Of a stretch of DNA of 34,298 nt, positions 16,109 to 21,507 are shown piece after piece. Numbering within the stretch: the stretch's first letter is position 1; each line of letters begins with the position of its first letter. A program made the translations under genes and the position numbers. The notes under the pieces are model-generated. The model ran no database searches and was not told where the DNA came from. It saw nothing but the letters and a program-made list of their open reading frames with translations. Origin of the DNA: a virus (taxonomy: Duplodnaviria; Caudoviricetes); the IMG/VR virus record IMGVR_UViG_3300020042_004973, positions 1 through 34,298 of that record; one strand, written 5' to 3'.

Positions 16109-16399
16109 CTAGAAAGGTACTTCGTTGTCATCTATGCTGTTTACTTCCTTGGGATACTGCGTAGGTCTACCGTCTTGATTCTTCCAAGCATCAGTTTCCT
16201 CTGCCACCTTAATCCAAGGCTTGCCTGTCTTAGTGGTCTGTGCCCACACTGCTAACTTGATTGTTTCCCCTGCCTTGTAGTCACGGGTGAGTACCATGCC
16301 ACCTTTAAACTCAGGAGCAAATTCACTCTTACGTTCTTTGACTTGAAAACAATATGCTTTCCCATCTGGTACTTTGAATTCGCCTTGATACTCAGCCAT
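16109..16399 (-). CDS. SSB-like single-stranded DNA-binding protein
   Basis: Follows the annealase. Acidic C-terminus DDNEVPF mimics the SSB tail. Confidence 0.6.
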   Translation of the reverse strand: MAEYQGEFKVPDGKAYCFQVKERKSEFAPEFKGGMVLTRDYKAGETIKLAVWAQTTKTGKPWIKVAEETDAWKNQDGRPTQYPKEVNSIDDNEVPF

Positions 16400-17222
16400 T
16401 TTGTTCTCCTGCATTAGCGATTGATTGATTTAAGACTGTTTTCTGGATACTGGTAAACGTCTCGATATAACCCTCATTGGCACGGGCGAGAGCTTTACAT
16501 TTCTCTTTCTTCTCCCCGCCATTAAGTTTTTTCGACTTTCCAATCTTTTCGCATAGTGTCGCAAACTGCAAAATCCATTCTTCTACGTCTACTGCGAATG
16601 AATATGCTTGCTCCATATCAGGAACCATAAGAGGAATCGTGCCAATGGCTTCAAAAGGCTCTAAAACGTCCTCTACGGCGTTTTCAGCCAGTTCGGGTAG
16701 TGGTTTTAAGGGTACAGCGTCAAAACGCCCCATATCCTTTGTTTTAGGTTCAAAGTCTTGCACTTCCTCTGGACTGTAGAAACCCGTCACACTGCCCGGA
16801 AACACAGTTCTAATGCCTTCAGAGATACAGCGTGACCTGAGCATCGCCCGTGGGAATTTCTGCCACCCACTGCCGGGCTTCACTAACCCAATGCGTGTGG
16901 CTTGTTCAATAGTCCATTCAATGCTAACTCTGCCGCCATTAGGGTGTGAGAAAACACCGACAACAATGGTATCGGTGTAAATAGTCCATTCCACCTTACC
17001 GCCAGCATTCTGAAACCGTGCAAGCATCGCATCTGCTTTGAGTGCGGGTCTACCTTGGATAATATGGAAATCTCTTGCTGCCGTGGCTGGGTGCAAACCT
17101 TCTGCTTGAGCTACTGCCATTAGTGCTAAGACTTCGTTTTCGTTCTTCATGCCAAATAGCCCTGACTTAGCTATAGCACTCGCCATACTTTGCATATCTT
17201 GAAACGGAATAATGTTACTCAT
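16392..17222 (-). CDS. RecT/Redbeta-like single-strand annealing protein
   Basis: HIIQGRPAL.ADAM, WQKFPRAMLRSRC.SEGIR..FP...G.Y.PEE. Adjacent to the YqaJ exonuclease. Confidence 0.78.
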   Translation of the reverse strand: MSNIIPFQDMQSMASAIAKSGLFGMKNENEVLALMAVAQAEGLHPATAARDFHIIQGRPALKADAMLARFQNAGGKVEWTIYTDTIVVGVFSHPNGGRVSIEWTIEQATRIGLVKPGSGWQKFPRAMLRSRCISEGIRTVFPGSVTGFYSPEEVQDFEPKTKDMGRFDAVPLKPLPELAENAVEDVLEPFEAIGTIPLMVPDMEQAYSFAVDVEEWILQFATLCEKIGKSKKLNGGEKKEKCKALARANEGYIETFTSIQKTVLNQSIANAGEQNG

Positions 17223-17232
17223 AATGTGCCCC

Positions 17233-18135
17233 TTATTTGACTAGAAACCGGCGTGAACCGGGCATTTCGACGATAAACTTTGTATAAACATCTGGCATCG
17301 CTGTTTTAAACGCATCTACAGAGAATCGCTTGCTACTTGCTGCACTTTTCCATGTCACAAGCGTAGTACCGTCTACACCACGAATCTCAGCCTTATCAGC
17401 CATTAAGTTGCGTATCTGTAATTCCACAACTTCCGCTTTTTGTTCAAGTGCTTTAATTTGACTCTTAGCCTGTCGCAAATAGTCAACGGCTTGTTCAATT
17501 GTTTGAGTAGCTGTAATAACTGTATCGGGTGATGAGGTTGGGTAGGCAAGTTTGGTTTGCTCAACACTTTCTGGGGTTGGCGTTTCGCCCGATACCACGC
17601 AAGCCCACAACTTAGCTTGTGCTTGAATGAAGGCATCTTTCTCTTGGTCACTAAAGTGAAAGTCGAATGTTTTGAACTCTTGACCGCCAAAGAGTACAGC
17701 CAGCACGACTTTTGAGACATTGTGTACAACAGCTTCATGTAAACACTGTGCGTAATCTGCGGCTGGTACACGGTTCTCGTCTTGGTCGAACTTGTTGCGA
17801 ACTTGGGCATTATAATTTTTGGCTTCAATAAGAGTCGTTCCATCGACCGATATGAAGTCGAAATGCGACTTAAGCCAAGCCTCTTTACTGTGAGAGAGCG
17901 CATAATCTGCTTCCTTAATTTCAAAGCCTAAATGATCTTGTGCAAGTCTGCCAATCAAGGGCTGCATGATGTGCCCCATGCGTACTGGCTCTAAATCGCT
18001 AATATCTTCACGTTCGTACTTGCCCTGCTTGATTAAGATAGCCTCTACAGCCTTACCATTAGCTGCCATGCGTGAATCACCAGACCACCATGCAGAGTTG
18101 CGTACTGCGGGGGCGAAATCGTCTCTATCGTTCAT
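17233..18135 (-). CDS. YqaJ-like (lambda-exonuclease family) recombination nuclease
   Basis: Likely start MNDRDDF. SHFDF...LIEAKN...Y.AQC.H...VLAVLFGG and a C-terminal TWK...SRRFLVK. Confidence 0.82.
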   Translation of the reverse strand: MNDRDDFAPAVRNSAWWSGDSRMAANGKAVEAILIKQGKYEREDISDLEPVRMGHIMQPLIGRLAQDHLGFEIKEADYALSHSKEAWLKSHFDFISVDGTTLIEAKNYNAQVRNKFDQDENRVPAADYAQCLHEAVVHNVSKVVLAVLFGGQEFKTFDFHFSDQEKDAFIQAQAKLWACVVSGETPTPESVEQTKLAYPTSSPDTVITATQTIEQAVDYLRQAKSQIKALEQKAEVVELQIRNLMADKAEIRGVDGTTLVTWKSAASSKRFSVDAFKTAMPDVYTKFIVEMPGSRRFLVK

Positions 18136-18331
18136 TTGATTGCTCCAAGTGGTATTGCGCCACAATCTTGCCGCTTGGCAGGATAAGTGTTTTGGTTTTT
18201 ATGTCATTACCTTGTTGGCGTAACTCTTTAATCCGTGCTGCTAAGCGAAAGCACCCACACCCTGCTAATGCTTCCATAGGTGTTAGTGGTGCTTGTTTGA
18301 GTTGATTGAGTATCCATGTGTTTTGTTTCAT
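18125..18331 (-). CDS. Winged helix-turn-helix DNA-binding protein
   Basis: LTPMEAL..CGCFRLAARIKELR..G..I motif. Confidence 0.78.
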   Translation of the reverse strand: MKQNTWILNQLKQAPLTPMEALAGCGCFRLAARIKELRQQGNDIKTKTLILPSGKIVAQYHLEQSNER

Positions 18332-18520: not shown

Positions 18521-18567
18521 GATAGTGCCCCTATGTGTGAGTTGATATACGAATCAATACAGATGTG

Positions 18568-18596
18568 ACTTTATACTATTACTTATCGTGTTGCAA
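18568..18596 (-). promoter_or_regulatory. Putative sigma70 promoter for the recombination operon
   Basis: Minus strand TTGCAA-N17-TAAAGT upstream of the 18520 start. Confidence 0.45.
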
Positions 18597-18659
18597 GTGC
18601 TACTGTTGTATTTCTGCTATTTATCTTAATTTCTGTGTAAATACTATGTAGACCTACTA

Positions 18660-18905
18660 TGTTCCTCGCAAAAACCCCCCTACCCCAAAGAGTATGAAGA
18701 TAGGTGCGGTGTTCCTCGGCTCTTGCGAGCAGCTACATGGCAATATTGCTATTGTCCCCCTCGGCTTGTAGCTTCAACCAGCCGCCCTGATTCTTTCGGA
18801 TTTGCACCGGCTCACTAACAACATGGCTTACAGGGATTCCGTTTCTCGATAGCCGCCTGAATTGTGGGCGCATTGTTAACGCAATCGTTACGGTTGCAAT
18901 GGGTA
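18660..18905 (-). ncRNA. Putative structured RNA of unknown class ending in a G-tract
   Basis: Stems AGCUACA/UGUAGCU, CAAUA-GCAA-UAUUG, GCUC-GCAA-GAGC, AGCCGG/CUGGUU. Ends in GGGGUAGGGGGG. No credible ORF with an RBS. Confidence 0.5.
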
Positions 18906-18907
18906 AC

Positions 18908-19025
18908 AAAAAAGCCGCTTTAGAGTGCACCTTGTTGGTCGACCCACCTTTGGGGGCGGGACATTCTTTGATAAATCATCTCCACGACATTTATCAAAAA
19001 ATCAAGATACACACTAAAACGGCTT
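18908..19025 (-). ncRNA. c4-like antisense RNA (three-way junction, terminator-like outer stem)
   Basis: Outer stem AAGCCGUUUUAGUGUGUAUCUUG/CAAGGUGCACUCUAAAGCGGCUU followed by a U-run. Two inner hairpins. Junction GUCGACCAA is complementary to upstream UUGGUCGAC (19032-19040). Confidence 0.65.
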
Positions 19026-19052
19026 AGATTTGTCGACCAAGACAACGGCAAC

Positions 19053-19081
19053 ACAATATCACACCTTTTTTTAATCTGCAA
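19053..19081 (-). promoter_or_regulatory. sigma70 promoter driving the c4-like RNA
   Basis: TTGCAG-N17-TATTGT with an extended -10 TG. Overlapped by inverted repeat CACACCTT/AAGGTGTG. Confidence 0.6.
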
Positions 19082-19113
19082 GGTGTGCGCGAGGGGGGGT
19101 TGCAATTTATTTT

Positions 19114-19559: not shown

Positions 19560-19729
19560 GCTGTCACCTCATTTTGTTTGCGTACCTCTGCAATGGCTTT
19601 CTGTGCTCTTGACAACGTATCAGCATCAATTTTGTGACATTCGCTAGAGGGTTCTTGTTCGTCTACAAAATACTCAGCAAGAGTTAATGCAAATTCGATT
19701 GCTTGAAATTGCTCTTTTGTGATGTGCAT
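19556..19729 (-). CDS. 57-aa early protein, not in the ORF track
   Basis: MHITKEQFQAIEFALTLAEYFVDEQEPSSECHKIDADTLSRAQKAIAEVRKQNEVTA*. AGGGGCAC RBS and ATGA coupling. Confidence 0.65.
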   Translation of the reverse strand: MHITKEQFQAIEFALTLAEYFVDEQEPSSECHKIDADTLSRAQKAIAEVRKQNEVTA

Positions 19730-19738
19730 CATGTGCCC

Positions 19739-19966
19739 CTAGTTTACGATTAGGTTATCTGAGAGTTTGCCGATGTAGCAAGTACCGATATTGCTATAAA
19801 TAGCGCAGTAAACCCTACGCCATTTCCCGTTATATCGAACCATATACCGTGTAGGGATACGTTTACCGTAACCCGTTGCGGTATAGGTCAATCCCTTTTC
19901 TTGCCACGATAGCGGCATTTCTTTAGATTCAAGCTCTACTACAGATTCATTTTGTTTGATGTACAT
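19739..19966 (-). CDS. Early hypothetical protein
   Basis: TATGYGKRIPT.YMV...GKWRRVY...YSN.GT.Y. AGGGGCA RBS. Confidence 0.7.
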   Translation of the reverse strand: MYIKQNESVVELESKEMPLSWQEKGLTYTATGYGKRIPTRYMVRYNGKWRRVYCAIYSNIGTCYIGKLSDNLIVN

Positions 19967-19975
19967 AATATGCCC

Positions 19976-20080
19976 CTAGTTTGCGAGTATGTTTAATGAT
20001 TCGTTTACGAATACGAATGTAACGATAGCAATTGCAATCCATGCGAGTACGTTAGCTAAAATCTCTTGTTTGCGTGTCAT
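19976..20080 (-). CDS. 34-aa single-pass membrane peptide immediately downstream of the hammerhead
   Basis: MTRKQEILANVLAWIAIAIVTFVFVNESLNILAN*. AAGGGGCAC RBS. Confidence 0.65.
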   Translation of the reverse strand: MTRKQEILANVLAWIAIAIVTFVFVNESLNILAN

Positions 20081-20100
20081 ATAGTGCCCCTTAAGTGTTT

Positions 20101-20629: not shown

Positions 20630-20898
20630 GCTTGCACCTTCGAAGCATCAAAACAGAATGTGTAGCCCTTACCGTCTGCGCTATCACCAAAGCGCATATC
20701 GTCTAAGCACCAGTCAAGCGAGTGTTTAGCCACAAGAGCCTTAACTGCTTCAAAGTGTGCCAGTTCGTATGATTCAGAGTAAGGGTAAGGGATAGTGGCT
20801 TCAAAGCCTTTGATGCTGCCTGAACCTACGGTATAGGCTTTAATGCGAGTGCCACGAGTGTTAGTAACTGGTATGCACTTGGTGTGAATTGCAATCAT
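20626..20898 (-). CDS. Early hypothetical protein
   Basis: AIHTK...TNTRGTRIKA motif. AGGGGCAC RBS. Confidence 0.7.
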   Translation of the reverse strand: MIAIHTKCIPVTNTRGTRIKAYTVGSGSIKGFEATIPYPYSESYELAHFEAVKALVAKHSLDWCLDDMRFGDSADGKGYTFCFDASKVQA

Positions 20899-20968
20899 AT
20901 TGTGCCCCTAGTGAGTGATGCTGCACCCTTTACGAGAGAGTGCAGCGAGAGAATAGTTTAATTGGCAG

Positions 20969-21181: not shown

Positions 21182-21236
21182 TATGTAACCCCTAAGTAGT
21201 TAAATATGATGCACTGTTACGTCAGTACATATAGTA

Positions 21237-21264
21237 AGTATAACCTATCATATAGCATTGTCAA
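21237..21264 (-). promoter_or_regulatory. Strong sigma70 early promoter
   Basis: TTGACA-N16-TATACT pointing into the early operon. Confidence 0.7.
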
Positions 21265-21507
21265 TACATTTCGTTAGATTTTGTTGCTATATATACACTA
21301 CTCTATATAACTGTATTACATATACATACTATAAAGGATTATTTAGTGGTTACTATATATAAGAAATATAGTTTTTTATGTATAATCTGTTTTATATAAT
21401 AATTATAATAAATACTTAGGTACTCACTTTATCTAGTCTACCTATCTAATACTTAAGTATATATAAGGGATAGGACAATCGAAGTTTTAGGGTATTACCA
21501 CTAACCG

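What the first reader, a model, noticed from the sequence alone, without database searches (positions are those of the whole stretch)
18660..19088. c4-like antisense RNA gating a large structured RNA with a G-tract: candidate RNA-only replication origin
Seen, in order on the minus strand: a promoter (19081-19053), a 9-nt target UUGGUCGAC, a terminator-like three-way junction carrying the complement GUCGACCAA, ~240 nt of GNRA-capped hairpins, the tract GGGGUAGGGGGG (18686-18675), then AT-rich DNA. It sits just upstream of the recombination genes, where an initiator gene might be expected, and no initiator, primase, helicase or polymerase is recognisable anywhere. Established: P1/P7 c4 RNA controls downstream expression through short antisense boxes. 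ColE1 RNA II and mitochondrial CSB2 use G-tracts to form persistent R-loop primers. Inference: here the c4-like switch controls a primer RNA rather than an antirepressor ORF.
Basis: partly seen in the sequence, partly recalled or inferred. Interest (0 to 1): 0.85.

Follow-up and report, generated by a model that had tools for sequence, protein, structure and literature searches.

The report
Guide-bearing RNA at phage replication origin
In a complete phage genome with no recognisable replication-starting protein, a gene-free stretch holds an antisense-type switch followed by a conserved element predicted to fold into a doubly knotted RNA, two short segments of which repeat the DNA just downstream and change in step with it, so the RNA likely grips its own template strand and primes DNA replication.

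Summary
The window is a complete 34-kb phage with no initiator, helicase, primase or polymerase detected. The c4-like cassette is real: the leader/box pair covaries across about 30 box sequences in relatives. It is not an Rfam C4 member and has no second target. The downstream ~235 nt belongs to an uncatalogued family of ~125 members in phages, prophage-like regions and two plasmids. It has two pseudoknots and a T-loop (29 of 34 pairs compensatory); only two hairpins are GNRA-capped. New here: two segments inside the RNA are same-sense copies of the DNA directly after the G-tract and mutate in step with it (27 matched versus 2 one-sided changes; 12 versus 5). No partner inside the RNA explains the 7-nt one, so it likely pairs with the template DNA strand. 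Relatives swap in other large RNAs (one is Rfam Betaproteobacteria-1) and often carry only the C-terminal half of an O-like initiator. Best reading: a ColE1-like RNA-primed origin with built-in guides, gated by a P4/c4-type attenuator (~0.6). Nothing is shown experimentally, and exclusion with Rep genes is incomplete.

The parts
19053..19081 (-). Predicted sigma-70 extended -10 promoter (TTGCAG, 17 nt, TG-n-TATTGT)
   Evidence: sequence; kept in L001, L004, L005; below the scanner's threshold
19032..19040 (-). Leader target of the switch (seqA / a1-b1-like)
   Evidence: covaries with the box in relatives
18907..19025 (-). c4/CI-like three-way junction whose closing stem and U-run form a predicted intrinsic terminator
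   Evidence: fold z -10.2; swapped for a different cassette in 98%-identical L001-L003
18935..18943 (-). Antisense box complementary to the leader target
   Evidence: pairs with the leader in the fold of the nascent transcript
18660..18893 (-). Large structured RNA ('class A'), candidate pre-primer
   Evidence: family of ~125 members; 89.8% of cells paired, 29 of 34 pairs compensatory; no Rfam match
18836..18893 (-). 5' module with first pseudoknot, shared with sister RNA classes
   Evidence: covarying pairs 18887-84/18850-47 and 18859-58/18840-39; cross-hits to classes B and C
18797..18809 (-). T-loop hairpin (CGG-UGCAAAU-CCG); its invariance is partly built in, because it was a search pattern
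   Evidence: the label T-loop is recalled from tRNA and cobalamin-riboswitch motifs
18731..18785 (-). Second pseudoknot: stem 18785-80/18766-62 crossed with stem 18773-67/18737-31; GCAA hairpin 18755-18740 in its loop
18776..18779 (-). Guide A (GGTT), in loop 1 of the second pseudoknot; same-sense copy of 18676-18673
   Evidence: 58 of 60 own matches, permutation maximum 84 against 155 observed
18710..18718 (-). Guide B / repeat R1 (CGAGGAACA), directly after the GCAA hairpin 18729-18720
18675..18686 (-). G-tract GGGGTAGGGGGG, 3' arm of a wobble-rich terminal hairpin
   Evidence: present in every untruncated family member found by the T-loop-side pattern alone; 190 of 513 paired Gs are G-U in predicted folds
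18673..18676 (-). Site A: sequence identical to guide A; its template strand is the predicted partner
18660..18668 (-). Site B / repeat R2, identical to guide B; predicted RNA-to-DNA transition at or just after it
   Evidence: the transition is inferred by analogy with ColE1
18597..18659 (.). AT-rich DNA after the element (candidate unwinding zone)
   Evidence: sequence; family mean A+T 5-7 points above locus mean in the first 90 nt after site B
18568..18596 (-). Separate predicted promoter of the recombination operon
   Evidence: sequence; kept in L004, L005, L006

Best explanation
The stretch is a promoter-like site, a c4/P4-CI-like switch and a conserved ~235-nt element predicted to fold as a doubly pseudoknotted RNA, which likely acts as a ColE1-like primer RNA that starts phage DNA replication with host enzymes. 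Proposed steps. (1, shown in sequence and predicted folds) The nascent leader pairs with the box, which competes with the terminator stem. (2, inferred from P4 CI) The terminated short RNA binds new leaders in trans and restores termination, giving copy control or immunity with swappable specificity. (3, shown by covariation) The read-through sequence has the pairing pattern of two pseudoknots and a T-loop domain, and carries two short segments identical to the DNA directly after the G-tract. (4, inferred) As polymerase passes, the RNA's own copies of these sites fold away into the terminal hairpin; the guides pair with the template strand there, stop it re-annealing and nucleate a persistent R-loop into the AT-rich DNA. 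(5, inferred from ColE1) RNase H trims the hybrid near 18660, Pol I extends it, and a helicase is loaded on the displaced strand by host PriA or DnaA or, in relatives, by the stand-alone O-like C-terminal domain or a phage helicase.
For: Structure. Guides: exact R2 7-mer in own upstream region 84 of 114, against 139 of 11,786 in members with another R2. In 30 disjoint neighbour pairs on a tree built without these columns: 27 matched against 2 one-sided changes for B, 12 against 5 for A. No intramolecular partner tracks guide B (z -0.9 to 0.8). Switch: leader/box complement of 7 nt or more in 34 of 51 cassettes against 10.5% of cross pairs; nascent versus full fold. Context: the window and 4 DTR relatives scanned (123 ORFs of 125 aa or more) show no helicase, primase, polymerase or full initiator. 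Three complete GenBank relatives list none beyond one 124-aa C-terminal-only protein; two carry a recognised sister RNA and the third a terminator plus ~340 unannotated nt in the slot. 20 of 22 O-like genes beside class A are C-terminal-only. All 80 best homologs of that short protein are stand-alone, and 24 of 59 with enough flank have class A or C upstream. 85 of 90 regions behind two other cassette families match one of four large RNA profiles; 51 have the short protein within 2.3 kb, none its full-length form. DnaA-box-like 9-mers: 8 in the 300 nt after the tract against 1.3 expected; ColE1 has one 96 nt after its G-run. Precedent: ColE1 and MRB replicons (PMC5043065; PMC3035462); P4 CI gates replication genes (PMC4825925).
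Against: No experiment. L146 and L203 carry full-length initiators 1.2 and 3 kb downstream. Plasmid NZ_CP029827 and plasmid-like L141 also encode Rep. 17 of 116 loci have a primase or helicase nearby. No Rep-less plasmid carrying the element was found. The window has no DnaA box near the element, and the enrichment rests on 6 of 66 loci against a mostly coding background. GC skew shows no consistent switch at the element in 5 genomes. A 68-aa winged-helix ORF and a second AT-rich region (about 21190-21480) remain candidate origin parts. Guide A has a weak partner inside the RNA (z 3.9 with G-U). R1 was located by best match to R2, which favours identity. An antisense RNA, not DNA, could be the partner. 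No sequence similarity to ColE1 RNA II by profile.
Confidence: 0.6

Rival explanations
1. The RNA opens the origin but does not prime: the guides hold the template open so that a helicase and primase load, and DnaG or a phage primase makes the primer.
For: 7 of 116 loci have a T7-like primase-helicase and 10 an SF2 helicase and/or PriCT-2 protein nearby; DnaA-like boxes downstream in 6 of 66.
Against: Fits the same anatomy, so no call separates it from the best explanation; ColE1 precedent favours priming.
Confidence: 0.13
2. A regulatory leader or attenuator for downstream genes, in which the same-sense repeats pair with a counter-transcribed antisense RNA or drive a folding switch.
For: P4 CI controls downstream genes by termination; an ORF starts within 20-70 nt of the G-tract in several members; the terminal hairpin is followed by a T-run; guide A has a weak internal partner.
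Against: The downstream operon here has its own conserved promoter; downstream genes vary widely; guide B has no internal partner; it leaves replication of these genomes unexplained.
Confidence: 0.1
3. A DNA-acting ribozyme: the two guides position the template strand, like the two exon-binding sites of a group II intron, for a site-specific nick that starts rolling-circle or recombination-dependent replication with RecE/RecT.
For: Two adjacent 4-7 nt guides on a tertiary-structured scaffold, 7-9 nt apart at the target; recombination genes are adjacent. The group II and HYER comparison is recalled, not tested.
Against: No Rfam ribozyme or intron match; a nick in the template strand would give a 3' end pointing back towards the promoter; sister classes differ in their cores.
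Confidence: 0.07
4. The structure works as single-stranded DNA (an ssi/sso-type priming signal or a protein-bound cruciform with two direct repeats), and the promoter serves only the c4-like RNA.
For: Covariation cannot separate RNA from ssDNA (stated in PMC5737381); it co-occurs with Rep in plasmids, as secondary priming signals do.
Against: T-loop, GNRA loops and many G-U pairs all read in the sense of the promoter; repeats that must be identical yet vary between phages are hard to explain by protein binding.
Confidence: 0.06
5. A conserved small protein is encoded across 18733-18930, or an unrecognised initiator (such as the 68-aa winged helix) uses its own origin and the RNA has an unrelated role in trans.
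For: The ORF exists in the window; PF14090 match.
Against: Frame open in 13 of 66 members, spacing spread over all phases; similar small ORFs precede RecE in L004-L006, which lack class A; the guides match sequence in cis.
Confidence: 0.04

Closest known systems
ColE1 RNA II pre-primer / RNA I (PMC5043065 and PMC6317783, passages; record NC_001371)
   Same: Promoter-driven non-coding RNA, no initiator protein, G-rich run before an A/T-rich end, antisense control at the 5' end, DnaA box about 100-150 nt downstream in some members. ColE1 has two G6 runs 247 nt apart; their RNA-to-template pairing is recalled from Masukata and Tomizawa 1990, of which only the title was seen.
   Different: No profile match; ~235 nt against ~550 nt; two pseudoknots and a T-loop; two variable guides; control by a same-strand c4-like attenuator instead of a counter-transcript; found mainly in tailed phages.
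P4 CI RNA / P1-P7 c4 RNA (Rfam C4, c4-2, c4-a1b1, isrK; PMC4825925, PMC10111431, PMC2864571)
   Same: Short three-way-junction RNA made from the same transcript as its upstream target; variable specificity boxes; termination control upstream of replication functions.
   Different: No Rfam score; no downstream second target; no nested kil/icd/ant ORF; the gated product is a non-coding RNA.
Rfam Betaproteobacteria-1 RNA (RF02932)
   Same: Occupies the same slot behind the same kind of cassette in sister phages; the extended class also shows an identity-covarying repeat at its 3' end.
   Different: Class A itself does not match it; different core; no G-tract; listed by Rfam only as an sRNA.
MRB (pB1067) RNA-based replicons; ARRPOF, PAGEV and GEBRO motifs (PMC3035462, PMC5737381, passages)
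   Same: Protein-free origin regions of 250-500 nt with structured RNA; compatibility set by short variable antisense loops.
   Different: Plasmids of Vibrionaceae, Fusobacterium or Streptococcus; MRB RNA I is a counter-transcript; no Rfam match here.
Human mitochondrial CSBII R-loop primer (PMC6317783, passages)
   Same: Two G-runs split by a short spacer and followed by T's, downstream of a promoter.
   Different: No folded upstream scaffold or guides described there; here the tract has a pyrimidine-rich partner arm; analogy only.

Membership tests
c4 / P4 CI antisense RNA | Scores above the Rfam threshold for C4, c4-2, c4-a1b1 or isrK | tested here: not met
   window: 0 at gathering, nothing relevant to E 10; 40 related loci, none
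c4 / P4 CI antisense RNA | Three-way junction with a single-stranded box complementary to an upstream site in its own transcript | tested here: met
c4 / P4 CI antisense RNA | Second target downstream (seqC, a2-b2) | tested here: not met
   no second exact site; the one-mismatch sites nearest downstream are on the opposite strand
c4 / P4 CI antisense RNA | Nested regulated ORF (kil/icd/ant) | tested here: not met
c4 / P4 CI antisense RNA | Processing to a stable small RNA that acts in trans | not testable with these tools
   needs transcript mapping
ColE1-type replicon | Sequence homology to RNA II | tested here: not met
   class A model finds nothing in NC_001371 at E 1; only an 11-nt likeness after the G-run in 9 of 66 members
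ColE1-type replicon | No element-encoded initiator | tested here: met
   met for the window; not for all family members
ColE1-type replicon | G-rich stretch just upstream of the origin | tested here: met
   G-tract conserved; the origin position itself is inferred
ColE1-type replicon | Counter-transcribed RNA I overlapping the primer's 5' end | tested here: inconclusive
   no plus-strand promoter or terminator listed over the element, but that scan also missed the main promoter
ColE1-type replicon | Persistent hybrid, RNase H cleavage, Pol I dependence | not testable with these tools
   bench work
Betaproteobacteria-1 (RF02932) | Rfam score above gathering | tested here: not met
   not met for class A; met for five sister-class loci
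MRB / PAGEV / ARRPOF / GEBRO | Rfam or sequence match | tested here: not met
   Rfam scans; plasmid searches found only NZ_CP029827. MRB sequences were not compared directly.

The most novel reading that the evidence does not exclude
A widespread class of RNA-guided replication origins: a folded RNA scaffold presents two short, reprogrammable guides that base-pair with its own template DNA and so replaces the DNA-binding half of a phage initiator. It is one of a set of interchangeable RNAs (including the orphan Betaproteobacteria-1 motif) under swappable c4-like immunity switches, and may itself cut or position the primer end.
Probability: 0.4. Interest if true: 0.95.

Novelty: new variant of a known kind. 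Interest (0 to 1): 0.83.

Why it matters
It would explain how many small tailed phages with no recognisable replication genes copy their DNA, and extend RNA-primed initiation from a few plasmid families to phages. It would give a function to an orphan Rfam motif. A review read here calls the trigger of persistent-hybrid formation in ColE1 speculative (PMC5043065); this family offers guide/site pairs with natural compensatory variants, so the question can be tested by simple swaps. A ~500-nt protein-free replicon with swappable specificity boxes could also serve as a vector part for Betaproteobacteria.

Tried and rejected
Rfam: nothing on the window at gathering or at E 10. A gapped T-loop + GGTTGAAG pattern returned only the L001 group plus chance hits, and one more viral pattern added no new contig. 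Conserved ORF rejected. An internal RNA partner for guide B rejected. GC skew uninformative. Plasmid searches with three class A queries and one Betaproteobacteria-1 query found one true homolog. GenBank phage searches gave one partial hit for the window segment and none for a second member. No RNA holder was listed, which is no evidence either way. RNAalifold on the first alignment mispaired the 5' end with the G-tract and cannot draw pseudoknots, so mutual information was used. Not run: the 101 larger ORFs of G004 and G005 were not scanned in full (only phrog_270); 24 of 35 unresolved loci were inspected; no structure prediction. Not found in print by ten library searches. Unread supplements could already list the motif: the whole supplement of PMC5737381 and 3 files of PMC10690425.

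Full report
Setting. The window is a whole virus record with direct terminal repeats, rated complete. PHROGs on 59 ORFs finds terminase, portal, capsid, tail, endolysin, RecE, RecT and RusA, but no initiator, primase, helicase or polymerase. Pfam on 29 mostly small window ORFs adds a 68-aa winged helix at 18125-18331. A profile of O-like C-terminal domains finds nothing in six frames at E 1.

Observation. The cassette folds as a three-way junction closed by a long stem and a U-run (z -10.2). A transcript that stops at 18925, before that stem is complete, folds instead with leader paired to box. That is the geometry of an attenuator. Rfam has no match to the window.

The switch is real and modular. 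L001-L003 are 98% identical in RecE and nearly identical across the downstream RNA, but carry a different cassette with its own leader/box pair. Of 117 family members, 41 had too little upstream DNA and 13 no U-run. The rest gave 58 distinct cassettes, 51 with a strong closing stem. Of those 51, 34 have a leader/box complement of 7 nt or more, against 10.5% of 2,440 cross pairs, with about 30 different boxes. It resembles P4 CI, which blocks P4 replication genes by termination through seqA and seqC (PMC4825925 passage; PMC10111431 passages). It does not score against Rfam C4-type models in 40 related loci, has no downstream target and no conserved nested ORF. It works like c4/CI but is not a member.

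The downstream RNA. A 17-nt pattern on the T-loop side gave 47 viral loci. Across all stored loci, 45 of 57 matches had the G-tract downstream; 3 were cut by contig ends and 9 lacked the upstream family motif. So conservation of the tract was seen before it was used as a pattern. A T-loop-plus-tract pattern then gave 12 GTDB loci and 120 metagenome loci, 130 distinct sequences in all including a few chance hits. Record titles point mostly to Betaproteobacteria. Of 66 representatives below 88% identity, 60 were aligned; 6 with long insertions or divergent cores were left out. Mutual information picks out the helices. A 34-pair structure with two pseudoknots has 89.8% of cells paired and 29 pairs with two-sided changes, against 31-42% paired when partners are slid. 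The pairs were chosen from the same alignment, so the shuffle counts are not probabilities. The 65-aa ORF is not conserved.

Two same-sense guides. A 6-10 nt direct repeat flanks the G-tract hairpin: 7 nt or more in 110 of 128 sequences, against 4.5% in shuffles. After dropping 14 sequences without a clean register, the exact downstream 7-mer is found upstream in 84 of 114 own sequences, against 139 of 11,786 cross comparisons, over 29 distinct words. A second segment, in loop 1 of the second pseudoknot, copies the letters at the end of the G-tract in 58 of 60 sequences (sum 155, permutation maximum 84). On a tree built without these columns, 30 disjoint neighbour pairs show 27 matched and 2 one-sided changes for the 7-mer, and 12 matched, 4 one-sided and 1 unmatched for guide A. 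The upstream copy was located by best match, which favours identity, but it sits at a constant place after the last small hairpin. Identity that is kept while the letters change implies a shared complementary partner. None inside the RNA tracks the 7-mer (z -0.9 to 0.8), and guide A has only a weak one (z 3.9 with G-U, 1.1 without). The template DNA strand is the simplest partner; an antisense RNA is the alternative. The two sites start 7-9 nt apart in 59 of 60 members, so the RNA could hold about 15 nt of template just after the G-tract. The sister class containing Betaproteobacteria-1 also shows identity-covarying columns near its 3' end; class C showed none among its top pairs.

Context. 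In G001, G002, G003 (class A) and G019 (class D), 123 ORFs of 125 aa or more include no helicase, primase, polymerase or full initiator; G001 has a protein matching only the C-terminal part of initiator profiles. G001 has terminal repeats but CheckV rates it 42% complete. G004 and G005 were only checked for phrog_270, and G005 has an SF2 helicase nearby. Among 116 class A loci, many on short contigs, 38 have a replication gene in reach: 22 O-like, 7 T7-like primase-helicase (one shared with an O-like locus) and 10 SF2 and/or PriCT-2. Twenty O-like genes lack the N-terminal DNA-binding part; L146 and L203 are full length. Starting from the short protein instead, the best 80 of 590 confirmed loci are all stand-alone (expected in part, as the query is short). 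Of 59 with 2.5 kb of flank, 24 have class A or C upstream, 8 a partial hit and 27 none. About half of 24 unresolved loci inspected hold further classes, one of which is Rfam Betaproteobacteria-1. Starting from two other cassette families, 85 of 90 distinct downstream regions match one of four RNA profiles, 51 have the short protein within 2.3 kb, and none its full-length form; other initiator families were not screened there. The two closest GenBank genomes by terminase list no initiator: one carries class B, the other an unassigned ~340-nt segment behind a terminator. Against strict exclusion, a Burkholderia plasmid and a plasmid-like contig carry both the RNA and Rep. DnaA-box-like 9-mers are enriched downstream (8 against 1.3 expected, in 6 of 66 loci) but absent here; I looked for them after reading two earlier notes of this scan.

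Mechanism. Shown: the layout, the covarying switch, the covarying fold, the two same-sense segments, and the lack of detectable replication genes. Inferred: transcription, trans action of the short RNA, pairing of the guides with template DNA, a persistent R-loop, RNase H trimming near 18660, Pol I extension and helicase loading. The model follows ColE1, where RNA II forms a persistent hybrid that is cut by RNase H and extended by Pol I (PMC5043065 passages), downstream of an essential G-rich stretch (PMC6317783 passages). ColE1 shows two G6 runs 247 nt apart and a DnaA box 96 nt after the second. That the upstream run pairs with template DNA is recalled, not read here. The class A model does not find ColE1. 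MRB plasmids show that RNA replicons arose more than once (PMC3035462 passages).

Novelty. Ten library searches found no description of this family. Papers seen: passages of PMC2864571 (plus supplement hits), PMC5737381 (supplement unreadable), PMC6312765 and PMC10085705; for PMC10690425, the listing and a supplement search with no hit, three files unsearched. Earlier notes of this scan describe similar swappable RNA modules in other genomes; they are unreviewed and not independent support. A word search for covarying guide repeats returned nothing.

Verdict. A real, conserved, uncatalogued structured element in the replication slot. It most likely works like a ColE1 primer RNA (0.6; 0.73 for any origin-opening role) but belongs to neither the ColE1 nor the c4 family. 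The paired guide/site covariation is the distinctive result and gives a direct test. Interest 0.83.

Noticed in passing
window 16109-16414 (-): 101-aa ORF after RecT ending in an acidic D-D-N-E-V-P-F tail typical of SSB proteins (recalled motif); no PHROGs or Pfam match above threshold. Probable phage SSB.
   Followed up: partly
window 18125-18331 (-): 68-aa winged-helix protein, PF14090, E 1.7e-10, two genes after the element.
   Followed up: partly
window 21190-21480: Very AT-rich gap (31% GC in its 500-nt bin) between the divergent early and late arms, with a strong TTGACA/TATACT promoter at 21264-21237.
   Followed up: no
window 18522-18532, 19727-19749, 19964-19986, 20077-20091, 20895-20912: Repeated AGGGGCA-type ribosome-binding motif before many early minus-strand ORFs.
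   Followed up: no
L486 (ColE1) 1175-1203; L086, L146, L154, L157, L163, L165, L203, L232, L260: 9 of 66 class A representatives match 10 of 11 letters of the ColE1 sequence that follows its origin G-run. ColE1 also has a 9-nt direct repeat at 1099 and 1195. Chance or remote kinship; covariation in ColE1 relatives was not tested.
   Followed up: partly
L449 and L457, behind the cassette: Unassigned RNA class with a T-loop-like hairpin, a G-tract and a 9-nt direct repeat flanking it; the class A model does not find it in L449.
   Followed up: no
L048 about 2400-2600: Same cassette as L005 but followed by a pyrimidine-rich segment, a G6-TAA-G6 tract and an ORF that looks like an HNH nuclease by eye.
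   Followed up: no
L004, L005, L488; L007, L041, L043, L044, L052, L054; L040, L050, L051, L058; L287, L333, L341; L273, L280, L298; L487 1-340: At least five further large non-coding classes behind c4-like cassettes; those scanned have no Rfam match. Class C shows strong helix covariation.
   Followed up: partly
L140 1940-2260 (-), L141, L150: Burkholderiaceae members lack the c4-like cassette and have a single hairpin between promoter and RNA.
   Followed up: partly
L143 6103-12793: Class A RNA in a tRNA-integrated, PICI-like island: integrase, cassette, RNA, HTH_39, AAA_25 helicase.
   Followed up: partly
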